NCBI GenBank assembly: GCA_037190965.1
Contig: JBBCKI010000024.1
Span: 21,005-85,004 of the forward strand
DNA: 64,000 bases
Direction of reading: 5' to 3'
Source of the DNA: Chthoniobacteraceae bacterium
GTDB lineage: Bacteria; Verrucomicrobiota; Verrucomicrobiia; Chthoniobacterales; Chthoniobacteraceae
In this document: piece after piece, positions 12,104-23,665 of the stretch
Layout: each line of letters starts with the position of its first letter
How positions within the stretch are numbered: the first letter of the stretch is position 1
Program-made: the position numbers and the translations under genes
The notes under the pieces: generated by a model
Told to the model about the DNA's origin: nothing
What the model saw: the letters and a program-made list of their open reading frames with translations, nothing else
The model's database searches: none

Positions 12104-14998
12104 ATGATATACCGCATGAAATTGCAGCAGATTCCTCTTATGCGTAGGGTGGATGTGGTTATATTCGGTGCGGGGACGGCGGCGGTATCCGCAGCGCGGG
12201 CCGCCCGCCAAGCGGGGAATGCGGTGCTCGTCCTGAGCGACCGCGCCTATCTAGGGGAGGAATCGGCGGGGGCGCTGGAGGTGATGGAGGAGACCAGGCA
12301 CGGAGAGTTTCCCGGCAGCGGCATTGAGCCCGGGCGGCCCGGAACGGTTAAGCATGCCCTGGAGATGGCTCTATTGGAGGCAGGCGTCGATTTCCTTTTC
12401 ATGGCTAGGCCGGTCGCGCTGCTGCCGGGCCAAGAGGGAGTGATTCACGTCGTCATTGCTTCGCGCACATCGCTGTTGGCGGTAAGCACTGGGCAGGTAC
12501 TCGATGCCTCCACGCATGGGTTGCTGCGATCGTTGCCGGGGGTGGAGCGTTTTACCGCGCGGCCCCGGCGTGCGTTGAAGCGGACGGCCGCTTCAGCCAT
12601 TCTGTTTGGTAACCTGGCGTGTCCGCCTAAGCTGGATGGCGTGAGGCTCACCCCAGTTGGGCGCACTATTTTATTCACGGACCGCGTCAAACGGGACCGC
12701 ATGGAAGTGCAGGCCTTCCGCGCGCAGTCGGAGGTGGAGCCCTGTGCGCTCACTCCTGAAGGCGCAAAGGCCGAGGCGGAATTTCGCGCTCGTCTTCTCC
12801 ATCCCGGCGTTGAACTGCTGGCTGACGCCGTTCGCTGGAAGTTGACGAATACCGCCGAGGAAAATGTCGGGCTTTACGACGATCCGCTGGTTCTGACCGC
12901 CGCGCAGTATGCCGTTCACCCGCAACTTTGGATCTGCGGACCGGAATTGCCATTGAGCGACGCAGGTCTGGCGACGCTTCATGATTCCGCCATCCTCGCC
13001 GCGCTGGGGCGGCGGCTGGCGGAATTGATGGCAGCGGAAGCACGGCGTCCGGGCGCTGTAAACGGAACCGAGCGGGACAAGGTCATGCCCGGGTTCGGCA
13101 AGATCCGCTTTGTGCCCTCCTTTCTCCGCGAAACAGTAGAGATGCTGGAGCTGGAACTGCCGGAGTTTCCTTTGCTGGATCAGTTCGATGTCGTCGTGGC
13201 AGGCGGTGGAACCGGCGGGGCTCCCGCAGGAATTGCCGCTGCTCGAAGCGGGAAAAGGACGCTGGTGCTGGAGCAGCAGCGGATGCTGGGCGGCGTCGGA
13301 ACGGCGGGGACAATCGGGAGCTATTGGTTTGGTAACAAGGTCGGCTTTACGGCGGAGGTGGATAGCTTCCTGCACTCCACGGATCCCACCTATGTTGACC
13401 CGGAGCGCAAGCGCCCGCTCGCGACTTGGAATACGGAATTGAAAGCGGCCTGGTACCTGAGCCAGCTTCAGGCAGCGGGGGGAGAAGTTTGGTTAGGCAG
13501 TTTTGCCTTCGGCGTCGAGATGGACGGGGATTTCGTGGTGGGCGTTCTGGTTTCGACGCCTTTCGGCGCGGGGCTGGTGCGGTGCCGGAGTGTTGTGGAT
13601 GCCTCGGGAAATGCTGACATCGCAGCAGCGGCCGGTGCGCCACTCCGCGTGATGGACGCCTTGCACAGCGCGGTGCAGGGGGCGGGGCTTTCGCCCCGGC
13701 GAGTGGGGGCGCATTATGTGAATACGGACTTCACCTTCATCGACGACAATGATCCGTACGGGATTACCTATGCTTACGTTCAGGCCCGGGCCAAATTTCC
13801 CGAAGAGTTTGATTCCACAACGATCCTGAACACCCGGGAAAGGAGGCAGATCATCGGGCGTATCGAGCTTTCGCCGCTCGATTTTCTAGCCGGGCGGACG
13901 TTCCCCGATGTCATCAATACGGCCAGCAGCAATTTCGATACGCATGGGTTCACGACTCACCCCGTTTTTGCGGTAGTGGCTCCGGATCATGCGCCCCTCT
14001 CCGCGAATGTTCCCTTGCGTTGCCTGATGCCGCAACGGGTAAGGGGGGTGATCGTGACGGGTCTTGGCATGAGTGCTCACCGCGACAGCCTGCCGGTAAT
14101 TCGTATGCAGGCGGATGTGCAGAACCAAGGCTACGCCGCCGGGCTGGCCGCGGCGATGGCGACGGATTGTGGCGGGGATTTTGATGCGGTCAACGTCCGG
14201 GTGCTCCAGAGGGAATTGGTCGCGCGGCAGGCGCTCGCCCCGGAGGCATTGGAGTGGGAAGACAGTTTCCCTTTGCCCCGGGAGGAGGTGGTCCGTTCCG
14301 CTGCCATTACGCCAGTCACGCTTTTTTCGGCCGCCATTCTTTTTGCGCACCCGGAGGAGAGCGTCCCTCTCCTGCGAGCCGCCATGCAGCAGCCCGCTTC
14401 AGACCTTCAATACGAGGAAGCCGCGCTGATGCTCGGACTGATGGCCGACGCCAGCGCTGCCTTTGGCCTTGCGGAGCTGATTGCGGCCCGGCCCTGGGAC
14501 GAGGGATGGAATTACCGGGGCATGGGGCAATTCGGCATGAGCGCGAGCCGCACTGATGCGCTTATCGTGGCCTTGGGACGGACGCGCTCGGTGGAGGCCA
14601 TCCCGGTGCTATTGGAAAAAATGGCGGCGCTTGGGAGTGATGCCGCTTTCTCTCACTGCCGAGCCGTGGCGCTGGCAGCGGGAAGCCTCGGAGCCTCGGA
14701 ATACGTTCCCGCTCTGCAGCGGCTCCTTTCTCTGCCGGGAATGCAGGGGCATGCCATCGTCTCCTTCGGCGATGGGGTGCAGGCGGCAAACGGTGACCCC
14801 GTGGAAACCGCCTCGCGCAACAATTCCCTGAGGGAGCTTTATCTAGCCAAGGGGCTTTACCTCTGCGGCGATTGCGACGGCACGGGCCGCCGTATCCTGG
14901 AAGGGTATAGCCGCGATCTGCGCGGTCCCTTCGCCCGCCATGCCCGGGCGGTTCTGAGTGCCTCAGATTTTGAGCTGCTGCGCCGTAAGAGCATTTAA
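12104..14998 (+). CDS. FAD-dependent oxidoreductase with two FAD_oxidored-type domains and a HEAT-like C-terminus
   Basis: Two Rossmann starts (VDVVIFGAGTAA; FDVVVAGGGTGGAPAG), VVDASGNAD, RERRQIIG, PLRCLMP, GYAAGLAAA; divergent from AraC. Confidence 0.85.
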   Translation: MIYRMKLQQIPLMRRVDVVIFGAGTAAVSAARAARQAGNAVLVLSDRAYLGEESAGALEVMEETRHGEFPGSGIEPGRPGTVKHALEMALLEAGVDFLFMARPVALLPGQEGVIHVVIASRTSLLAVSTGQVLDASTHGLLRSLPGVERFTARPRRALKRTAASAILFGNLACPPKLDGVRLTPVGRTILFTDRVKRDRMEVQAFRAQSEVEPCALTPEGAKAEAEFRARLLHPGVELLADAVRWKLTNTAEENVGLYDDPLVLTAAQYAVHPQLWICGPELPLSDAGLATLHDSAILAALGRRLAELMAAEARRPGAVNGTERDKVMPGFGKIRFVPSFLRETVEMLELELPEFPLLDQFDVVVAGGGTGGAPAGIAAARSGKRTLVLEQQRMLGGVGTAGTIGSYWFGNKVGFTAEVDSFLHSTDPTYVDPERKRPLATWNTELKAAWYLSQLQAAGGEVWLGSFAFGVEMDGDFVVGVLVSTPFGAGLVRCRSVVDASGNADIAAAAGAPLRVMDALHSAVQGAGLSPRRVGAHYVNTDFTFIDDNDPYGITYAYVQARAKFPEEFDSTTILNTRERRQIIGRIELSPLDFLAGRTFPDVINTASSNFDTHGFTTHPVFAVVAPDHAPLSANVPLRCLMPQRVRGVIVTGLGMSAHRDSLPVIRMQADVQNQGYAAGLAAAMATDCGGDFDAVNVRVLQRELVARQALAPEALEWEDSFPLPREEVVRSAAITPVTLFSAAILFAHPEESVPLLRAAMQQPASDLQYEEAALMLGLMADASAAFGLAELIAARPWDEGWNYRGMGQFGMSASRTDALIVALGRTRSVEAIPVLLEKMAALGSDAAFSHCRAVALAAGSLGASEYVPALQRLLSLPGMQGHAIVSFGDGVQAANGDPVETASRNNSLRELYLAKGLYLCGDCDGTGRRILEGYSRDLRGPFARHARAVLSASDFELLRRKSI

Positions 14999-15052
14999 TG
15001 CCGGGGAGGGGACTCGAACCCCTACTCCTTGCGGAACCAGATCCTAAGTCTG
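14999..15052 (-). pseudogene. Displaced 3' fragment of tRNA-Leu(TAG), distal att site of the integrated element
   Basis: Reverse complement CAGA-CTTAGGA-TCTGG-TTCCGCAAGGAGT-AGGGG-TTCGAGT-CCCCT-CCCCGGC-A; no D-arm or 5' acceptor strand. Confidence 0.93.
15032..15052. repeat. att core direct repeat, copy 1 (CGGAACCAGATCCTAAGTCTG, 21 bp)
   Basis: Identical to 23617-23637 inside the intact tRNA-Leu. Confidence 0.93.
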
Positions 15053-15273
15053 ATATGTATCAGCTGATTTTCAGTAGTTTACAGAAAATTCGAGACACGC
15101 TGACGTGTCTTGGCTTGTGCGCAAAACTTGAATTTTTGAGGGAGAGGGGGAAACGTAAGTCTTCTTAAGGTGAGGTGAACAGCTTTCGCCACTTCGAAAG
15201 GTTTTAGTCACTCAAGAATTTAGCTCAGAGGTCTGATGGAGATTGGCGAAGCAACTCTCAGTCGCGGGTGCGC

Positions 15274-15302
15274 TTGACATTGTATAAACACTCCTTCACG
15301 AT
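15274..15302 (+). promoter_or_regulatory. Sigma70-like promoter TTGACA-N17-CACGAT for the NDT-like gene
   Basis: Consensus -35 box, 17-bp spacer and near-consensus -10 box, about 20 bp before ATG 15322. Confidence 0.55.
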
Positions 15303-15321
15303 CAAACGACTTTTTACAAAT

Positions 15322-16146
15322 ATGTCGAAGAAACTTTGTTTTATCATATCCCCCATTGGCGAAGAAGGGTCAGAAGTTCGGAAGCGTGCCGACCAAGTTC
15401 TGAGGCATGTGTTAGCGCCAGCGGTTAATGGCTGTGGCTACGAACCAGTTCGTGCTGATACGATTGCGGAGCCCGGCTTGATTACAAGTCAGATTATCCA
15501 GCACATTGTTGACGATCCCCTCGTCATTGCAGATTTAACCGGGATGAATCCTAACGTCTTCTATGAACTTGCTATCCGGCATGCTATTCGCAGACCGCTG
15601 GTTCAGGTAATTCAGAAAGGCGAAAAAATTCCCTTTGACGTTGCAGGAATGAGGACGATCCCGGTTGATCATCGGGATCTGGACAGCGTCGAAGAAGCAA
15701 AAGGTGAAATTCAAAAACAGATTAAGGCTGTCGAGAGTAAAAAGCCCGCCGATATCGATTCTCCTATCTCAGTATCCGTTGAGATCCAAAGCTTACGGCA
15801 AAGCGAAAACCCGGAGAAGAGATCATTAGCGGAATTCGTTTCGGCAGTTGCCGATTTACGGTCAGATATTGCCGCAATTGAGAAGCGCATCTCCAGCCCT
15901 GAACGGATACTCCCGGTCGAATATCTTCGCGAGGTGATGCCGATGCTTCGACGAAGGTCAAGGGATAGTGAGATGATTTATAGAGAGCTTACGTCCTACG
16001 CTCGGGAGATGATTGAAGCAATACCAGAAAAGCAACGAGAGGCAGTCAAACCGGCTTTTCTGAGATTCGACAAATTGCTTTGTATGTTGCGCGATGAATC
16101 TTCAGGCTATGAGACAGGAGGGGGGGGGCGAAGCATTTTCGGGTAA
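15322..16146 (+). CDS. Nucleoside 2-deoxyribosyltransferase-like (TIR-related flavodoxin-fold) protein with helical C-terminus; putative defence effector
   Basis: CFIISPIG...VRAD...PGLITSQII..I...LVIADLTGMNPNVFYELAIRHA...IPFDV..MRTI signature; ATG at 15322 preferred over GTG at 15268. Confidence 0.8.
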   Translation: MSKKLCFIISPIGEEGSEVRKRADQVLRHVLAPAVNGCGYEPVRADTIAEPGLITSQIIQHIVDDPLVIADLTGMNPNVFYELAIRHAIRRPLVQVIQKGEKIPFDVAGMRTIPVDHRDLDSVEEAKGEIQKQIKAVESKKPADIDSPISVSVEIQSLRQSENPEKRSLAEFVSAVADLRSDIAAIEKRISSPERILPVEYLREVMPMLRRRSRDSEMIYRELTSYAREMIEAIPEKQREAVKPAFLRFDKLLCMLRDESSGYETGGGGRSIFG

Positions 16147-17703: not shown

Positions 17704-18315
17704 CTACCGACGTGCTTGCGCCTCTTGCTGCACTCTGGTTTTACTCGTGCCGGTTGGAAGCTCGTACTTCAACCGGATAAGCCGTTTGTCCGTCTCGGTA
17801 GGCTGCTCAGGAAAAGGTATGACCCAAAATGAATCGTGGTCTAGTCGCGTCCGTTCCTCCCGGTCCTCTGGAAAGCCGAGACTCCAAAGCAAAAGGTAGG
17901 GAGCAATAGCCGGGTTGGTAAATCCTTCTTCACTGTAAATGGGATACCAGACCTCAGCACGGGTGATCGCTTTATTCTGGATTTTCAGTTTCGCTCCTAC
18001 CGTCACGCCGTTCCCATCGCCGTTTGCCCGGCTACCCCTTACAACGATGTCTGCTTTCTCATTCCCGTCTTCGATCAGTTTGATCTGAACAGGGAGTCCT
18101 TTCAGGGTCTCGTTAATTCCCTCCACTGCTTCTGCAATTATCGCCCGGTTGGCTCCAAATTCTCCGATGATAGAAAGAGTGGGGGATTTCTCAAACCGAA
18201 TGGATTCGCCCCGCTTTCCACACAAGACATATGTCGCAAGCTTAGGATCGATTGCTTGTACGTCCAAGGAGGACCAAACGAGGGTCGCGGCGAGAATCAA
18301 AAATGTCTTTTTCAT
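17704..18315 (-). CDS. Secreted hypothetical protein, DUF2927/zincin-like, paralog B
   Basis: Signal peptide MKKTFLILAATLVWSSLDVQA; ATGA overlap with paralog A; shares RFEKSPT.SI.G, GLPVQI, KADIV, PTE.DK..IR.KYE.P.GT with paralog A. Confidence 0.75.
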   Translation of the reverse strand: MKKTFLILAATLVWSSLDVQAIDPKLATYVLCGKRGESIRFEKSPTLSIIGEFGANRAIIAEAVEGINETLKGLPVQIKLIEDGNEKADIVVRGSRANGDGNGVTVGAKLKIQNKAITRAEVWYPIYSEEGFTNPAIAPYLLLWSLGFPEDREERTRLDHDSFWVIPFPEQPTETDKRLIRLKYELPTGTSKTRVQQEAQARR

Positions 18316-18944
18316 TTGAGCGTCTTTTTTGCGAGTTCCCGAACTTTCCATTTGTCGGTTCCAGACGGGATCTCGTACTTGAAGCGGATCGCCTGTTTGT
18401 CGATTTCGGTCGGTGTCATGGGAAGGCGTTCGCCGATATAAGACGAAACACTCCACATGGAATCTTTGCGGATCTTTTCGCCCACATTCGCAAACCCCAT
18501 CGCATTCATGATTTTATGATATGCACCTCGTTTATCGGGTTCTCCAAGAGTCCATTCTGGTAGCCAGTTCGAAATGATCGTTGCCTTAAAAATGTACCCG
18601 TTCTTATACTCTCGATCCACGTCAAAAGCTTTGCTTAACTCAGCCTGCGTGATTGGTTTCGTGTTGTAGACGATATCAGCCTTCTTGTCGTTATCGGCGA
18701 CAACAATGATCTGAACGGGAAGCCCTTCCCAGACGGCATTGAGTTCAGAGACGACCTCCAGAATCATTTTTCGATAAACACCGGGGTCTCCGACGATTGA
18801 GAAGGTTGGGGATTTCTCAAATCGAAAGGACTTTTGTCCTTGGCAGATGATCTCCGCTATAAACTTATCGTCGAGCTTTTCTTGCGCACAGGCGAGTGTT
18901 GACGCGCAGATTGAGAGAACGGCTGCCAGTAGCTTGATTTTCAT
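18312..18944 (-). CDS. Secreted hypothetical protein, DUF2927/zincin-like, paralog A
   Basis: Signal peptide MKIKLLAAVLSICASTLACA; clear similarity to the neighbouring paralog. Confidence 0.75.
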   Translation of the reverse strand: MKIKLLAAVLSICASTLACAQEKLDDKFIAEIICQGQKSFRFEKSPTFSIVGDPGVYRKMILEVVSELNAVWEGLPVQIIVVADNDKKADIVYNTKPITQAELSKAFDVDREYKNGYIFKATIISNWLPEWTLGEPDKRGAYHKIMNAMGFANVGEKIRKDSMWSVSSYIGERLPMTPTEIDKQAIRFKYEIPSGTDKWKVRELAKKTLK

Positions 18945-18970
18945 TGTTCTGTAAAAGTTATCCTTCAAAA

Positions 18971-19711
18971 TCAATTTGTTCTCCGCCGGACTCGGTAAGC
19001 AGAGAGCAATAATCCGCCTGTCATTCCGAGGAGCGCAATGCCTGATGGTTCAGGGACCACGGCAAAGTTGTTGAACGACTGCTGATTTGAAGTGGTGGAC
19101 GGGGCATTTCCGTTGAAGAAGAGGTGAAACTGCGAGATTTCAGTCCCTCCAGCGGCGGCTATCAGGTTTCCGCTTCTGCTTATGACCGTTGTCGAGCCGA
19201 TTTGATTTACGGCAATCGTGTACGAGGAAGCGCCCGTAAGAGTGAATTCGATGTGGATTCCTTGAGTCGTCTTATTCGCTGACTTCCACCCCGGTCCATC
19301 GTCATCCGTCATCGTGTAACTGGGAGTGAACCCTCCGTAACAGTCGAACTCAAAAAGTAGACTGCCCGAGGCGTTCTCCAGCTTGAACCCGGCAACGCTC
19401 CCCATTTCGAGCGTACCACTGTAGTAGTCCATGCTGAATGTTTGCCCTATCCCTAAAGCCCCGCCAAATGAACGGACCGCTTGGGCGTTTGTGCCTGTGC
19501 TTGCTTGCAAGGTCAAGGCGGTCCCTGCCGAAAACGTGCCACTGGGACCGCTAGAATTGAGGGTCCAAGAAGAGCCCCAGCCGTACCCGCCATTGCTGCC
19601 GTTGCTCCAGCCCGTCGAGTATGCGGCATTTGCAGCCCTATCGGAAGCAATGGTCGCAGAGTTGCCGTGAACAGGTAGGAGGCAGACCACCGAAAACAAG
19701 AGGGGTTTCAT
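18971..19711 (-). CDS. PEP-CTERM sorting-domain surface protein
   Basis: Signal peptide MKPLLFSVVCLLPVHG; Ser/Gly/Thr-rich body; C-terminal VPEPSGIALLGMTGGLLLSAYRVRRR. Confidence 0.92.
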   Translation of the reverse strand: MKPLLFSVVCLLPVHGNSATIASDRAANAAYSTGWSNGSNGGYGWGSSWTLNSSGPSGTFSAGTALTLQASTGTNAQAVRSFGGALGIGQTFSMDYYSGTLEMGSVAGFKLENASGSLLFEFDCYGGFTPSYTMTDDDGPGWKSANKTTQGIHIEFTLTGASSYTIAVNQIGSTTVISRSGNLIAAAGGTEISQFHLFFNGNAPSTTSNQQSFNNFAVVPEPSGIALLGMTGGLLLSAYRVRRRTN

Positions 19712-19780: not shown

Positions 19781-19872
19781 GCTCCTTTATCGGAGTAAAC
19801 AACGGGCGAGGTCAAGGAAATGTGCTCCTTTATACGAGCACTTCCATGAAATGTACCCTTTATCTTGAGTAC
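19781..19872. promoter_or_regulatory. Three related operator boxes between the divergent PEP-CTERM and XRE genes
   Basis: GCTCCTTTATCGGAGT (19781-19796), GTGCTCCTTTATACGAGCAC (19822-19841), GTACCCTTTATCTTGAGTAC (19853-19872). Confidence 0.65.
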
Positions 19873-19888
19873 CCCGTCCTACGGGGGC

Positions 19889-20164
19889 ATGAAATCCGCG
19901 CTCAACATTATCGGCTCAAACATTCGCAAGATTCGGGCTTACAAAGGTCTTACTCAGGAGCAGGTTGCCGTAAAGTGTCAGGTTTTGGGCTTCGATTTGA
20001 CTCGAGGCACCCTTGCCAAGATTGAAAGTGGCGTTAGATCGGTCTCCGACCATGAAATTCCATACCTTGCACGCGCCCTCGAAGCCAACATCGAAGATCT
20101 TTTTCCCACGGAGCTGATTCCTGTGCATCGAGAGCCAAGATTTAAGGGGAGCAGGGATCAGTGA
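19889..20164 (+). CDS. XRE-family HTH transcriptional regulator
   Basis: IGSNIRKIRAYKGLTQEQVA...TRGTLAKIESGVRSV...LARALEANIEDLF. Confidence 0.92.
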   Translation: MKSALNIIGSNIRKIRAYKGLTQEQVAVKCQVLGFDLTRGTLAKIESGVRSVSDHEIPYLARALEANIEDLFPTELIPVHREPRFKGSRDQ

Positions 20165-20509
20165 CTGAGCGCTATAAAGCCGCTGGTCGCTTCTCCCGCA
20201 AGGAATATCTCGAAGAGCAGGGGGAACCCTATGAGTTTGGAGCCGATTTAGCAGTGGATACATTCAATCGGTCCGAGAACTCATGATCGAAGAAGCGAGC
20301 CCCCGGTCCTATCTTCCTCATGATAAAACGAAACAGGGATTTGGACGCGTAGCGGACAACATCCCATCCAGTGAAAAAAGCTCGAATTGAGAGCGACAGC
20401 GAACAATTCCCGACCTCGGTCGAGCTTTTTGAAAGCTCATGAAAATAACTTAGAATTTCCGGGCTAAGGAAGTTTTAAAGAAATTCTGGATTATTCTGAT
20501 CGAGTTTCT

Positions 20510-21160
20510 CTGTGGGTCGCTTGATTCACCGACTTCGCGTCGCGTCAAGACGCGCCGCTTAGTCGGTTCATCCGCTCCTAAGTGGCTAACTGCTCATTCT
20601 TCACAGTTAGCCCAACCTGATTTTTTTGACTAAATCATCGCGTAAGCGAAACGTAGCGGTGGCGTCAAGACATGGTTAGCCCTAGACGCCGATCAAAGCG
20701 TTTTTGGGCTATAAGGAGATAGGTCTCCCGCAACAACCGCTTGCCACTCGCTTGAGTAGCTTGCTGCGTTGTGAAAACGGCAATCGTAGGTCCGACTTTC
20801 CCCTTGGTAGGGCGAATGCATCCTAGCTCTTAAGGCGAGCGTCCGTTTCCGCTATCGACTCGACCGGCTCGGGAGTCACTCCGATTAAACCAGCTAGCCA
20901 ATTTTCGACTCTTTCGAGTCTTACCGTCTCCGGGTTTTTGAGAACTTTCGTTCCGCATTTTCCACAAGATCTAGCCCGGCGCATTGAGCCTCGCTAAAAG
21001 CGCAGTTTTCGCTCCCTCAAGAGACTACTGGCATGCGCACGGCGTCGTTTCCTTATGTTTCGGGGGCGTCTGTCCGTCTATTCCAGACTACGTTGACCCT
21101 TACTCATCGTCCACCTCGAATTCCAAACAGGGGCTATGACCCATCGAGGCGGCGGGCTAG
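20510..21160 (-). ncRNA. Candidate large structured non-coding RNA (~650 nt); the distal part may instead be a DNA origin
   Basis: No ORF of 60 aa or more; more than 12 stems; GAAA tetraloops and G-U pairs on the minus strand; long-range 8-bp pairing of 21153-21160 with 20971-20978; AT-rich promoter-like DNA immediately upstream. Confidence 0.6.
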
Positions 21161-21242
21161 TTATATTTACACATTAATTAATGCTTTTTAACCGAGAATT
21201 AAAATTTTTTATTCCCACGGCATTTTCTGTGTAAAGACATGG
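21161..21242. promoter_or_regulatory. Divergent promoter region with mirrored TGTGTAAA boxes
   Basis: TTTACACA at 21166-21173 (TGTGTAAATATA on minus) and TGTGTAAAGACA at 21228-21239, each 5-7 nt before the start of the RNA candidate or the GIY-YIG ORF. Confidence 0.55.
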
Positions 21243-21809
21243 GTGAATACCCAAGGGATCGTAATTTATGCCGTAGTATGCCTTGCCGACCGACATCGCT
21301 ACATCGGCAGCACCTCAAGAATCGAGAAAAGAGCGTTAGAGCACTGGCGTGATCTTGCCAAAGGAACTCATTTCAGCAAAAGCCTTCAGGTTGCATACAA
21401 TAGGCATGGGCGTGAAATGTTTGCCTTTTTTATTCTTGAGCGGATCAAAGATGAAGATCAAGTGCGCGAGCGGGAGGAATTCTATATTGCCGATGCCATC
21501 CGAGGAGGAGAAGCATACAACGTTTCACCCGTGGGTGGCAGTAGACGAGGCTATAAACTCAGCGAAGAGACTCGTAGAAAGCAGTCGCTTGCAAAAACCG
21601 GAAAAAGGCGTCCGGGATTCGGAGCTAAGATTGCGGCGAAGATTTCCAAAGTTTACCGTTTTCTATCTCCAGAAGGTGTATTGGTCGAAACATTCGGTCT
21701 GCGTGACTTCTGCCTGCGGCATGGCTTGAGCATGGGGAATATGAGCCGTCTTGCCAGAGGTTACTTAAAGCAATGTAAGGGCTGGACGGCTGCACCAACC
21801 CTTTCGTGA
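21243..21809 (+). CDS. GIY-YIG endonuclease with NUMOD3-type DNA-binding motif (homing-endonuclease-like)
   Basis: VIYAV...RYIGST..IEKR..EH, REREEFYI, YNV catalytic residues; KLSEETRRKQSLAKTG NUMOD3; C-terminal HTH-like FCLRHGLSMGNMSRLARG. Confidence 0.9.
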   Translation: MNTQGIVIYAVVCLADRHRYIGSTSRIEKRALEHWRDLAKGTHFSKSLQVAYNRHGREMFAFFILERIKDEDQVREREEFYIADAIRGGEAYNVSPVGGSRRGYKLSEETRRKQSLAKTGKRRPGFGAKIAAKISKVYRFLSPEGVLVETFGLRDFCLRHGLSMGNMSRLARGYLKQCKGWTAAPTLS

Positions 21810-22084
21810 AGCAAAAGCGGCGGCTACAGGCATTTAAAAGCGATTGAGGGGCATTTCTGGGGGAGAAATAGTTCACCGCCCCCCGGTTCTCGCAGATTTT
21901 CCAGTGATTCCGTTTTTTTCAAAAACGGCGGCGGGGCTGTCAGGTGCTAGAAAAAGACAATCTAATGTATATCTCGCAATCAGTTCAACCTATCTGCGAA
22001 AGAGAGCAATGACTTGCGACGGGCTATTGGCTACGCCGTTTTTAACAAAAAATCAAGAAATAAAAGTTGCATTTCTGCGGATTT

Positions 22085-22321
22085 ATGATCTTGAGTTTTT
22101 TTAAATTTGTTGATAATGGTTGTGTGTCGATTGAGAACAACGAATCCGAAGACAGTATCCTAGCGTTTCGCTTTAACGCTGAGGGGGAGGCTGTTTTCCT
22201 TCAGCAGTTCAAGTCAGAGCGAGATCGTCTGGCATTGATCTCCTTTGCAAGGATCGTTGTTGACCAACTGAGCGTCGATTTCACCAAATCTTTAAGCCAA
22301 CGACAGCTTCATCTTAATTGA
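22085..22321 (+). CDS. Small hypothetical protein convergent with the integrase
   Basis: Short ORF overlapping the integrase stop; no recognisable motif; start uncertain. Confidence 0.3.
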   Translation: MILSFFKFVDNGCVSIENNESEDSILAFRFNAEGEAVFLQQFKSERDRLALISFARIVVDQLSVDFTKSLSQRQLHLN

Positions 22322-23503
22322 ATCGACTAAATGCTGATTTTTTTCCATGACTCCCTTCGGTAGTATGTTCCAAAACTTTAGCGCATCCTTGTGGTGAACG
22401 ACATCACGATAGGTATTGTACAGGAGAACTGCATTGGGATGTCCTAGGAGCACAGCCGTTGCGCTTGCATTTTTGAAAGCTGCGACGTGATAGCTGGCGA
22501 ATGAATGGCGCATCGCATTCTGATGGTATTCGATTTTAGCGCCTTCGCGGACTTTGCGCAGTCGATTTGAGTAATTCTTTGGCGACACCCTGCCTGTAGA
22601 GGCGCAGCATTCCAGCCAAGCTAACGCATTTTTTGGAATTTCATTGGACCGCCTTCTCCCCTTTTTCGCAATCGCCGCAGTGACCTCCACTCGTCTTTGC
22701 TCTAGGTTTATATGCTGCCAGTCGAGCTTCTGTGCTTCCTCGACCCGAATTCCACAGAAGAGTACAAGGACCATGCACGCGCACTCCGCCTTGGCGTTCG
22801 AATCCAGAGCGTGCTGAAGGAGTGTCTTAACATCCGCTGTGGTCAGGCAGGTAACCTTGCTTTCGATTTGTTTTGGTTTTGGAACCTTGGCAAAGGGATT
22901 GAGTTCTCGGGAGATGTAGCCGCGCTCGGCTAGAAAATTGAACAGCAGGACGCCATGTCGTAGATGGTTTCTCCGTGTGGTTTGGTTCCACTTGTGATTC
23001 TTGTTGTAAATGTACCCCTCCGCTTGCTTGAAATCCACGTTAGTAACGAGGCAGTCTTTGAAGAACTTTTGGAGTGCGCCGAAATACTCTTCGGCAGATT
23101 CGAGGTATCGCTGACTTAGACCGGCTTTGGTTTTAATTTTAAGAAACTCTCTGATTGCCTCTTTGAAGGAAATTGCGGGCTTCGATGGCTTCGCGTGTTT
23201 TAAGAAGAACTCAACGGCATCGTTGAGGGATGCGCCGTAGGGGCGCAGTTTTTCGAGTGCTCCCAAGACCTCATAGCGGGTTGATTGCGCCAAATCGGAC
23301 AGCGCCAGCGGGCTTTTCCGTCGAATTTCTTCGTCTGCCTTGCGTTTGAATTCTTGAGCTGCCGCCAAAGTGGGAAAGGTCGGCTGCTTTCTCTTCCCCT
23401 GCACCATGCCCAAATCGACCCGGTAGCTGACGCTCCCACTGCGATTTCGCTTTGGGTGGATCTTTGTTTCCGTCTTCACCTGCATCGTGAAAACGTGCCT
23501 CAA
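22292..23503 (-). CDS. int: Tyrosine recombinase/integrase
   Basis: N-terminal arm-binding domain (SYRVDLG...KRKQPTF..LAAA); catalytic GIRVEE, AKKG, NAMRHSFASYH, LLGH, Y; start at 23503 (TTG) or 23485 (ATG); adjacent to the tRNA 3' end. Confidence 0.95.
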   Translation of the reverse strand: MRHVFTMQVKTETKIHPKRNRSGSVSYRVDLGMVQGKRKQPTFPTLAAAQEFKRKADEEIRRKSPLALSDLAQSTRYEVLGALEKLRPYGASLNDAVEFFLKHAKPSKPAISFKEAIREFLKIKTKAGLSQRYLESAEEYFGALQKFFKDCLVTNVDFKQAEGYIYNKNHKWNQTTRRNHLRHGVLLFNFLAERGYISRELNPFAKVPKPKQIESKVTCLTTADVKTLLQHALDSNAKAECACMVLVLFCGIRVEEAQKLDWQHINLEQRRVEVTAAIAKKGRRRSNEIPKNALAWLECCASTGRVSPKNYSNRLRKVREGAKIEYHQNAMRHSFASYHVAAFKNASATAVLLGHPNAVLLYNTYRDVVHHKDALKFWNILPKGVMEKNQHLVDSIKMKLSLA

Positions 23504-23583
23504 AGCGTGTCTCGGTCAAGCAAAAACTTCCCGAAATTCCTTTCGAGGTGTTTTTGTAAGTCTCTGGAAATCAGAGATTTAAG

Positions 23584-23665
23584 TGCCGGGGACAGGACTT
23601 GAACCTGCACTCCTTTCGGAACCAGATCCTAAGTCTGGCGCGTCTGCCAATTTCGCCACCCCGGC
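23584..23665 (-). tRNA. tRNA-Leu(TAG), integration target
   Basis: GCCGGGG-TG-GCGAAATTGGCAGACGC-G-CCAGA-CTTAGGA-TCTGG-TTCCGAAAGGAGT-GCAGG-TTCAAGT-CCTGT-CCCCGGC-A; long variable arm; CCA not encoded. Confidence 0.97.
23617..23637. repeat. att core direct repeat, copy 2
   Basis: Identical to 15032-15052; spans the anticodon arm. Confidence 0.93.

What the first reader, a model, noticed from the sequence alone, without database searches (positions are those of the whole stretch)
20510..21160. Candidate ~650-nt highly structured ncRNA inside a tRNA-integrated element
Seen: the 1.08-kb gap between XRE and GIY-YIG has no ORF of 60 aa or more and is packed with stems. On the minus strand the putative 5' end CTAGCCCG (21160-21153) pairs with CGGGCTAG (20978-20971), closing a ~190-nt domain. 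That domain contains CCGCCTCGA/TCGAGGTGG (with a G-U pair), GTCT-ggaat-AGAC and CGCT-ttt-AGCG. Further along are GAAC-GAAA-GTTC (20942-20953), GACTC-GAAA-GAGTC (20907-20920), GCTGGTT/AGCCGGT enclosing GGAG-tga-CTCC, GCTACTC-AAGC-GAGTGGC, GGAGA-ccta-TCTCC, TAGCCC/GGGCTA, the 9-bp GGCTAACTG/CAGTTAGCC (20584-20612) and ACCGACT/AGTCGGT enclosing CGCGTC-TT-GACGCG. The GAAA tetraloops and wobble pairs work only on the minus strand, which suggests selection at the RNA level. Known: large ornate bacterial ncRNA classes (GOLLD, ROOL, MISL, HEARO) exist and several are linked to phages, tRNAs or mobile nucleases. Inference: this is a member of such a class or a new one.
Basis: partly seen in the sequence, partly recalled or inferred. 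Interest (0 to 1): 0.9.

Follow-up and report, generated by a model that had tools for sequence, protein, structure and literature searches.

The report
Orphan hairpin-rich noncoding stretch, possible RNA
A gene-free stretch of about 0.8 kb in a small mobile island of a soil bacterium folds far better than chance on one strand and may encode a large structured RNA, but no relatives were found, so this cannot yet be shown.

Summary
The XRE/GIY-YIG gap has no ORF above 53 aa. The minus strand of 20510-21160 folds better than all 120 dinucleotide shuffles (z -4.15), while the plus strand does not (z -1.57, 8/120).

The region lies in an 8.6-kb island integrated at tRNA-Leu. It matches no Rfam 15 family, even at E<=10, so it is not GOLLD, ROOL, HEARO, OLE or a group I/II intron.

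It is an orphan. It is single-copy in its genome. I found no real homolog in 60 relatives or 400 phylum genomes (BLAST), 150 relatives (covariance model of the 5' domain), phages, plasmids, 34 metagenome loci with the same XRE family, or 21 viral loci with GIY-YIG relatives. Only two ~98%-identical fragments turned up, in a second soil study. Covariation therefore cannot be tested, and no RNA data exist.

Two new facts:
- Sister islands in the same genus carry a Rep-like gene in this slot, on this strand. A profile search found no remnant of it here.
- The hexamer GGGCTA/TAGCCC occurs 7 times (0.18 expected).

Best reading (~0.4): a real minus-strand structured ncRNA. The rivals remain open: a DNA-level element, a decayed remnant, or a small-protein mRNA.

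The parts
20510..21160 (-). Core of the candidate structured RNA. A 5' domain of ~190 nt (21160-20971) is closed by CTAGCCCGCCGCCTCGA.../...CGCCGGGCTAG. It is followed by hairpins with GAAA, GAGA, GAAA and CUUG tetraloops.
   Evidence: Sequence. Folds. z -4.15 with 0 of 120 shuffles as good on minus, against -1.57 on plus. Ensemble diversity 105.8, lower than all 22 shuffles on minus; on plus, 15 of 22 shuffles are lower.
20365..20509 (-). Possible 3' extension and end of the transcript. It holds inverted repeats 20439-20459/20480-20500 and 20375-20385/20420-20430. The second is followed on the minus strand by TTTTTT, and an A-run before it makes it look bidirectional.
   Evidence: Inverted repeats I2 and I5 and sequence. 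z -4.4 on minus and -3.7 on plus for 20400-20599.
21161..21242 (.). AT-rich 82-bp spacer between the RNA 5' end and the divergent GIY-YIG gene. Presumed divergent promoter region.
   Evidence: Sequence only. No minus-strand sigma-70-type site passed the scan, so the promoter is inferred, not shown.
21243..21809 (+). GIY-YIG + NUMOD3 homing endonuclease (188 aa), divergent from the candidate RNA.
   Evidence: Pfam GIY-YIG 6.5e-9 and NUMOD3 1.5e-4. PHROG homing endonuclease 4e-21. No relative at E<=1e-10 in the 5.8-billion-protein search: 1 hit, itself, of 76 candidates. 0 of 400 phylum genomes.
19865..20164 (+). XRE-family HTH regulator, convergent with the candidate RNA. The true start is probably 19889 (a 91-aa form).
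   Evidence: Pfam HTH_31 and HTH_3. 54 relatives at 57-76% identity, ~95 aa long.
20826..20984 (-). 53-aa ORF inside the region, with GAGG four bases before its ATG. Basis of the small-protein rival.
   Evidence: The only hit among 1.84 billion representatives is a repeat protein (DWLAGLG repeats), judged spurious. Pfam gives nothing below E 0.07.
20461..21159 (.). Seven copies of the hexamer GGGCTA/TAGCCC. Plus-strand copies at 20461, 20706, 21131, 21154; minus-strand copies at 20608, 20677, 20972.
   Evidence: 7 observed against 0.18 expected from genome frequency. The whole 64-kb window has only 15.
22292..23503 (-). Tyrosine integrase of the island, next to tRNA-Leu.
   Evidence: Pfam Phage_integrase 7.7e-13; PHROG integrase 5e-34.
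23573..23665 (-). tRNA-Leu(tag) 23583-23665 and the right att repeat 23573-23637. The left copy lies at 14988-15052.

Best explanation
The stretch is most likely a stand-alone non-coding RNA gene of the island, read from the minus strand.

Proposed transcript. Transcription would start in the AT-rich spacer shared with the divergent homing-endonuclease gene, near 21160. It would end at one of the hairpins between about 20510 and 20370, giving roughly 650-790 nt. The RNA would fold into a ~190-nt 5' domain closed by a long helix, followed by a chain of hairpins with GNRA and CUUG loops. Repeated UAGCCC/GGGCUA hexamers supply several of the helices and allow alternative pairings.

Proposed role. 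The region fills the position and strand where two sister islands carry a Rep-like gene. My guess is that it serves the island's own life cycle, either maintenance or replication after excision, or control of the neighbouring genes.

Shown: absence of coding capacity, fold excess, strand bias, genomic context.
Inferred: transcription, the ends of the transcript, the detailed fold, and any function.
For: Folding:
- Minus-strand fold excess z -4.15 (0/120 shuffles as good) against plus -1.57.
- Five of six consecutive 200-nt minus-strand windows at z<=-2.4. The genome background is 5 of 138 at that level.
- Minus-strand ensemble diversity is below all 22 shuffles. The plus strand is not.
- Three GNRA and one CUUG among 22 hairpin loops, on the minus strand only. 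Unpaired bases are 43% A, and 29 of 258 pairs are G-U.
- The minus strand is purine-rich (GC and AT skews).

Not coding:
- It contains the only six-frame ORF-free stretch of 300 nt or more in 64 kb.
- No Pfam hit for any of the nine ORFs of 39-53 aa submitted.
- No remnant of the sister islands' Rep-like gene by tblastn (best E 0.3) or by a 3-sequence HMM against six frames (best E 0.69).

Other:
- It is not a repeat or MITE. It is single-copy in the genome.
- The syntenic intervals of the sister islands show no such fold excess.
- Two fragments at ~98% identity occur in a soil run from a second study. Six of their 8 differences are compatible with the predicted fold: 5 at positions with P(unpaired)>=0.98, and 1 C>U giving G-U.
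Against: - No homolog, hence no covariation. Everything rests on the thermodynamics of one sequence.
- With DNA parameters both strands are structured (z -3.99 and -3.19), so symmetric palindromes carry much of the signal.
- Two of the three variants at predicted paired positions break their pair (20997, 20981). The enrichment of variants in unpaired positions (5 of 8, against 36% of bases unpaired) is not significant, and the contigs have depth of only 2-3.
- No minus-strand promoter passes the consensus scan. The only promoter-like site is on the plus strand at 20429-20456.
- No canonical terminator.
- The detailed fold differs between the 666-nt and 801-nt folds.
- The 5' domain window alone has z +0.6.
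- The sevenfold GGGCTA motif could equally be a protein-binding DNA site.
- There is no expression evidence of any kind.
Confidence: 0.4

Rival explanations
1. Non-functional leftover. The slot once held a gene, such as the Rep-like gene of the sister islands, or DNA dragged in with the free-standing homing endonuclease. That sequence has decayed beyond recognition, and the hairpins are partly terminators and partly chance.
For: - Sister islands G005 (L064) and G001 (L065) have the same order, with a 234-249-aa Rep-like gene on the same strand in this slot: tRNA, integrase(-), Rep-like(-), XRE(+), cargo, resolvase(-).
- The ORF-free gap is about the length of that gene plus its flanks.
- The region and the endonuclease are both orphans.
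- The Rep-like proteins are only 26-35% identical to each other, so a decayed copy could escape detection.
Against: - No remnant found by tblastn or by HMM in any frame over 20100-22350.
- Decayed genes are not expected to fold at z -4.15 on one strand only.
- The Rep-like genes themselves and their flanks show z near 0.
- Ensemble diversity is below all shuffles on the minus strand.
Confidence: 0.27
2. DNA-level element rather than an RNA. It would be a cluster of protein-binding sites or a replication origin of the island, for example operators, iteron-like GGGCTA sites, or a strand-specific single-strand origin as in rolling-circle replicons. The inverted repeats would be recognised as DNA.
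For: - GGGCTA/TAGCCC occurs 7 times in 801 nt against 0.18 expected, in both orientations.
- Both strands fold significantly with DNA parameters.
- In 20400-20700 both strands have z below -3.4.
- The region replaces the replication-type gene of the sister islands, which gives weak PF23343 hits at 6e-5 and 3e-3, below Pfam's cut-off.
- It lies between a regulator and a nuclease gene.
Against: - No Rep-like gene in this genome that could act on such an origin (best E 0.4).
- The sister islands have no comparable structured stretch next to their Rep-like gene.
- The hexamers share no longer consensus and have no regular spacing.
- Strand bias under RNA parameters and GNRA/CUUG loops are not expected for double-stranded sites.
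- 650 nt is long for a single-strand origin (150-300 nt, recalled knowledge).
Confidence: 0.2
3. An mRNA for a small protein, the 53-aa ORF at 20984-20826, with long structured untranslated regions.
For: - ATG preceded by GAGG.
- The translation includes a CxxC pair and looks protein-like.
- Faint Zn-ribbon Pfam hit at E 0.072.
Against: - No true relative among 1.84 billion representative proteins. The single hit is driven by a repeat protein.
- The ORF covers only 159 of about 650-800 nt.
- Its start codon lies inside the predicted closing helix of the 5' domain.
- Of the two X3 variants inside the ORF, one is non-synonymous and one synonymous (own reading of codons). That is uninformative.
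Confidence: 0.08
4. A diverged member of a known RNA class: GOLLD, ROOL, HEARO, OLE, or a group I or group II intron associated with the homing endonuclease.
For: - Its size and its location on a tRNA-linked mobile element next to a homing endonuclease resemble the settings described for such RNAs (recalled knowledge; the titles and abstracts listed concern GOLLD and ROOL).
Against: - No Rfam 15 family at E<=10 over 20000-21700, both strands.
- The endonuclease gene is on the opposite strand and outside the RNA.
- No interrupted host gene flanks the region.
- No reverse transcriptase is present.
Confidence: 0.03

Closest known systems
Large ornate bacterial ncRNAs of unknown function (GOLLD, ROOL, OLE, raiA)
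   Same: - Size of several hundred nucleotides.
- Many hairpins with GNRA loops.
- No coding capacity.
- Location on a mobile element beside a tRNA gene, as described for GOLLD and ROOL (recalled; abstracts listed).
- Purine-rich transcript strand.
   Different: - No match to any Rfam 15 model.
- Those classes are defined by hundreds of covarying homologs. This sequence has none, so its structure is only a single-sequence prediction.
HEARO / omega-RNA type nuclease-associated RNAs
   Same: A structured non-coding stretch directly beside a mobile nuclease gene.
   Different: - The neighbour is a GIY-YIG + NUMOD3 homing endonuclease, not an IscB/TnpB-type RNA-guided nuclease.
- The RNA is divergent from the gene, not downstream on the same strand.
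- No Rfam hit.
- 21 viral loci with GIY-YIG relatives showed no similar stretch.
Group I introns carrying GIY-YIG homing endonuclease genes (I-TevI type)
   Same: Association of an I-TevI-like endonuclease (GIY-YIG + NUMOD3) with a structured RNA of intron-like size.
   Different: - No group I core detected.
- The endonuclease is on the opposite strand and outside the RNA.
- There are no exons: the flanks are an AT-rich spacer and the 3' end of XRE.
- The endonuclease is better read as free-standing.
Replication modules of small mobile elements: the Rep gene plus origin of the sister islands, Rep-independent RNA-primed origins such as ColE1 RNA II, and single-strand origins of rolling-circle replicons
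   Same: - It occupies the slot and strand of the Rep-like gene in two sister islands.
- It is an ORF-free, strand-biased, highly structured stretch of ColE1-RNA-II-like length (the length is recalled).
   Different: - No sequence or Rfam similarity to RNA I/RNA II-type RNAs.
- No antisense promoter opposite the 5' end; the only promoter-like site, on the plus strand, faces the 3' end.
- No Rep-like gene in the genome.
- Replication of the island is untested.

Membership tests
Any curated Rfam 15 family (GOLLD, ROOL, HEARO, OLE, raiA, RNase P, tmRNA, 6S and others; that these names are in the library is recalled) | Covariance-model score at or above the family's gathering threshold | tested here: not met
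   Whole window at gathering score: only 3 tRNAs. 20000-21700 at E<=10 with permissive filters: only sR44, 13 bits against a cut-off of 45, E 3.9.
Group I intron with homing endonuclease | Conserved catalytic core (P3-P9) recognisable by the Rfam model | tested here: not met
   No hit at E<=10 on either strand.
Group I intron with homing endonuclease | Interrupts a host gene, with the endonuclease ORF in a peripheral loop on the same strand | tested here: not met
   The flanks are an AT-rich spacer and the XRE 3' end. GIY-YIG lies outside the RNA on the opposite strand.
Group II intron | Domain V/VI and D1-D4 models; usually an RT/maturase ORF | tested here: not met
   No Rfam hit. No RT among the island ORFs.
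Conserved structured ncRNA class (generic definition) | Homologs in several genomes whose substitutions preserve the helices (covariation) | tested here: inconclusive
   No homolog found in any of these:
- own genome
- 60 relatives
- 400 phylum genomes
- 149 relatives beside the window's own genome, searched with model R1
- phages and plasmids
- one metagenome pattern scan
- 34 XRE loci
- 21 GIY-YIG viral loci

Only ~98%-identical fragments turned up, with 8 differences: 6 compatible with the fold and 2 disruptive.
Conserved structured ncRNA class (generic definition) | Fold more stable than composition-matched shuffles, on the transcribed strand | tested here: met
   z -4.15 (0/120) on minus against -1.57 on plus; genome background.
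Conserved structured ncRNA class (generic definition) | A discrete transcript | not testable with these tools
   No RNA data could be laid on the region.
MITE / repeated palindromic element of this genome | Multiple copies in the genome; terminal inverted repeats with a target-site duplication | tested here: not met
   Single copy by BLAST and nhmmer. The 14-nt, 79% inverted repeat at 20375-20388/21176-21189 has no flanking duplication (sequence).
Decayed Rep-like gene of the sister islands | Residual similarity to the Rep-like family in some frame | tested here: not met
   tblastn best E 0.3. A 3-sequence HMM against six frames with X at stops gave best E 0.69 and a negative score. Sensitivity is low because the family is only 26-35% identical internally.

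The most novel reading that the evidence does not exclude
A previously unseen large (about 650-800 nt) structured RNA that has taken the place of the protein replication gene in a family of tRNA-integrating islands of soil Verrucomicrobia. It would be built around repeated UAGCCC/GGGCUA pairing modules that permit alternative folds or self-association. It would act in the island's replication, maintenance or control without any dedicated protein partner.
Probability: 0.25. Interest if true: 0.7.

Novelty: new member of a known kind. Interest (0 to 1): 0.4.

Why it matters
Large structured bacterial RNAs are rare, and several (GOLLD, ROOL, OLE, raiA) still have no known function. Nearly all were found because they have many homologs. 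An orphan candidate in an under-studied phylum, sitting in a slot where related islands carry a replication-type gene, would suggest two things if it were real. Such RNAs may also arise as rare, lineage-specific modules of mobile elements. It would also offer a concrete functional hypothesis, an RNA substituting for a Rep-like module, that can be tested by excision and replication assays.

If it is not transcribed, the finding reduces to an unusual hairpin- and motif-rich spacer. In that case the sevenfold GGGCTA motif is the part worth explaining.

Tried and rejected
Searches and tests that led nowhere:

- **Rfam.** Nothing at gathering score or at E<=10.

- **DNA homology.**
  - Own genome: single copy.
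  - 60 relatives: 0.
  - 400 phylum genomes: 49 non-self genomes had matches of 19-47 nt at per-genome E 0.002-0.1. I inspected six of these matches, and they are unrelated, mostly coding-like sequence.
  - Phages and plasmids, blastn 'distant' mode: none.

- **Metagenome pattern scan** for the 9-bp hairpin with its flanks: 0.

- **Covariance model R1** of the 5' domain, built from a single sequence. Four non-self hits in 149 relatives, E 1e-4 to 0.36. I viewed three of them as alignments. The best (24.8 bits) lies in GC-rich, ORF-covered sequence with large deletions of the model, and I judged it chance. No hit in 49 held loci.

- **GIY-YIG as an anchor.**
  - 21 viral loci at 41% identity or less. 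nhmmer over these plus the 19 loci kept gave one line, E 0.008, on L009, which is one of the latter. The 13 viral loci I checked have no ORF-free stretch of 300 nt or more next to the endonuclease gene.
  - 0 of 400 phylum genomes.
  - One irrelevant locus in genome contigs.
  - No relative among the 5.8 billion proteins.

- **XRE as an anchor.** 34 metagenome loci and 1 viral locus. The 34 metagenome loci show no similarity to the region, and the neighbours I checked are heterogeneous. I did not examine the viral locus further. The closest relative (76%) sits on a contig that ends 54 nt after the gene.

- **267-aa PEP-CTERM protein** in viral contigs: none.

- **Integrase as an anchor.** Two sister islands found, with no similarity to the region.

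- **Decayed-gene tests.** All negative.

- **53-aa ORF.** No true relative.

- **Sequencing runs.** No RNA holder is listed. Only DNA contigs could be laid, so nothing can be said on expression. The parts of the island without cover in X2 and X3 are uninformative, because depth is low.

- **Literature.** Three full-text searches returned no paper on such an RNA among the listings and abstract starts I saw. No paper was read in full. The searches used: GIY-YIG / large noncoding RNA / Verrucomicrobia; GOLLD / ROOL / homing endonuclease; and large structured RNA / ornate / mobile genetic element / covariation, from 2023.

- **Earlier notes of this scan.** Nothing near the place or similar in sequence.

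- **Transposon reading of the 14-nt end repeats.** Rejected (single copy, no target duplication).

Full report
**What is there.** The window holds an 8.6-kb low-GC island (about 47-55% GC against 60-65% outside). It is bounded by a 65-nt direct repeat at 14988-15052 and 23573-23637 (83% identity). The right copy overlaps tRNA-Leu(tag) at 23583-23665. From right to left the island carries:
- a tyrosine integrase (22292-23503, minus)
- a GIY-YIG + NUMOD3 homing endonuclease (21243-21809, plus)
- the ORF-free stretch in question
- an XRE regulator (19865-20164, plus)
- a PEP-CTERM protein
- two paralogous secreted proteins
- a serine resolvase
- a TIR-like protein

Earlier AI notes of this scan call the genome a soil verrucomicrobium. 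I did not verify that label.

**Checking the observation.** The gap between XRE and the endonuclease has no ORF above 53 aa. 20475-20987 is the only stretch of 300 nt or more in the 64-kb window with no 60-codon open frame in any frame.

Folding 20510-21160 as RNA gives these results with 120 dinucleotide shuffles:
- minus strand: z -4.15, no shuffle as stable
- plus strand: z -1.57, 8 shuffles as stable

In 200-nt windows the minus strand scores -4.4, -3.4, -4.3, -2.5, -0.9 and -2.6 from 20400 to 20900. Among 138 random window-strands of the same genome, only 5 reach -2.4 and none reaches -3.4. The minus-strand ensemble is better defined than all 22 shuffles, while the plus-strand ensemble is not.

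Three cautions apply:
- With DNA energy parameters both strands are structured (z -3.99 and -3.19).
- The 21000-21199 window alone is unremarkable.
- Several helices differ between the 666-nt and 801-nt folds.

**Known classes.** No Rfam 15 family matches, either at gathering score over the window or at E<=10 over 20000-21700. The endonuclease lies outside the stretch on the other strand, and no gene is interrupted. A group I or group II intron reading therefore fails on the features I could test.

**Search for relatives.** The stretch is single-copy in its genome. BLAST found nothing real in 60 relatives. In 400 genomes of the phylum it found only 19-47-nt matches at chance-level E-values, and the six I inspected were unrelated. 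Phage and plasmid collections gave nothing. An exact-pattern scan of the metagenome collection for one hairpin gave nothing. A covariance model of the 5' domain gave four weak non-self hits in 149 relatives. The best sits in ORF-covered GC-rich sequence with most of the model deleted.

Anchoring on the neighbouring genes did not help either:
- The endonuclease has no close relative anywhere I could look. Its distant viral relatives have no such neighbour.
- The XRE belongs to a common family (54 relatives at 57-76% identity). Its 34 metagenome loci show no similarity to the stretch, and the neighbours I checked vary.

The only other sighting is in DNA contigs of soil runs. One run, which may be the source of the assembly, and a second run from the same study are identical. 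A run from a second study holds two small contigs covering 20577-20881 and 20947-21075, with 7 substitutions and 1 deletion. Against the predicted fold:
- five of these eight lie at positions with P(unpaired)>=0.98
- one turns a G-C pair into G-U
- two break predicted pairs

With 36% of bases unpaired and contig depth of 2-3, this says nothing firm.

**Context that changes the picture.** Two genomes of the same genus carry islands with a related integrase (43-45% identity), a related XRE (36-38%) and a resolvase in the same order, at tRNA-Thr. Between XRE and integrase, on the same strand as the candidate RNA, they carry a 234-249-aa gene. It has weak hits to the replication-protein family PF23343 (6e-5 and 3e-3, below Pfam's cut-off). 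It also shows conserved HQTLTF and H-x-H-type motifs (the reading as HUH-like motifs is my own).

The ORF-free stretch plus the endonuclease therefore sit where sister islands have a Rep-like gene. This makes the decayed-gene rival concrete, so I tested it. tblastn of both proteins gave a best E of 0.3. A profile of the three known family members, searched against all six frames of 20100-22350, gave a best E of 0.69 with a negative score. No remnant is detectable. Sensitivity is poor, however, because the family members are only 26-35% identical to each other. The syntenic intervals of the sister islands have no fold excess. This genome has no Rep-like gene elsewhere.

**A new feature.** The hexamer GGGCTA/TAGCCC occurs seven times in 20365-21165, four in one orientation and three in the other, against 0.18 expected from the genome. 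The rest of the window has only eight copies. The copies share no longer consensus. On the minus-strand RNA they would be UAGCCC and GGGCUA. Several predicted helices, including the one closing the 5' domain, are formed between them. This fits two readings equally well: an RNA with modular, possibly alternative pairings, or a DNA element with repeated protein-binding sites.

**Other rivals.** A 53-aa ORF (20984-20826, minus) has GAGG before its ATG. It has no true relative among 1.84 billion representative proteins, since the single hit is caused by a repeat protein. It has no Pfam family either. A 14-nt imperfect inverted repeat near the two ends does not make the stretch a transposon, because it is single-copy and has no target duplication.

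**Verdict.** The stretch is a genuine, statistically unusual, strand-biased, structure-rich non-coding region. It belongs to no known RNA family. I put about 0.4 on a real minus-strand structured RNA. The rest is shared between a decayed remnant (0.27), a DNA-level element (0.2), a small-protein mRNA (0.08) and a diverged known class (0.03). What would make it a strong discovery, namely homologs with covariation or a transcript, could not be obtained with the data within reach. The candidate is worth an RNA-seq or Northern test and a search across all public assemblies.

Noticed in passing
L064 (G005:C26:1-12000) and L065 (G001:C14:72000-87600): Two genomes of the same genus carry sister islands at tRNA-Thr. 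The gene order is integrase, a 234-249-aa Rep-like gene (HQTLTF and H-x-H motifs, weak PF23343 hit), XRE, GYF_2-domain cargo proteins and a serine resolvase. The Rep-like family has only three members in the searches I ran.
   Followed up: partly
window 20461-21159: The hexamer GGGCTA/TAGCCC occurs seven times in about 800 nt (0.18 expected), in both orientations, with no longer shared consensus. It could be an RNA pairing module or a protein-binding DNA site.
   Followed up: partly
window 15268-16146 (+): The 292-aa protein at the left end of the island matches a PADLOC TIR effector model (3.8e-10) and phrog_3634 (1.6e-53). It may be a defence-type cargo gene.
   Followed up: no
window 17704-18974 (-), repeats 18161-18204 and 18787-18830: Two adjacent paralogous secreted proteins (250 and 220 aa) share an 82%-identical 44-nt stretch. 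Next to them is a 267-aa protein with a C-terminal PEP-CTERM-like anchor (VPEPS...RRR). None has a Pfam, PHROG or PADLOC family.
   Followed up: no
window 20161-20286 (+): A 41-aa ORF starts at a GTG that overlaps the XRE stop codon (GTGA) and has a protein-like sequence. It may be a small gene translationally coupled to XRE. No Pfam hit.
   Followed up: partly
window 20429-20456 (+): This is the only sigma-70-like promoter match in 19800-21900 (TTGAAA-16-TAGAAT, 10 of 12). It is on the plus strand and faces into the candidate RNA region and toward the endonuclease gene. It could give an antisense transcript or a long leader.
   Followed up: no
window 21243-21809 (+): The GIY-YIG + NUMOD3 homing endonuclease is itself an orphan. 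The 5.8-billion-protein search gave no relative at E<=1e-10, and none was found in 400 phylum genomes. The best matches are 41%-identical viral contig genes.
   Followed up: yes
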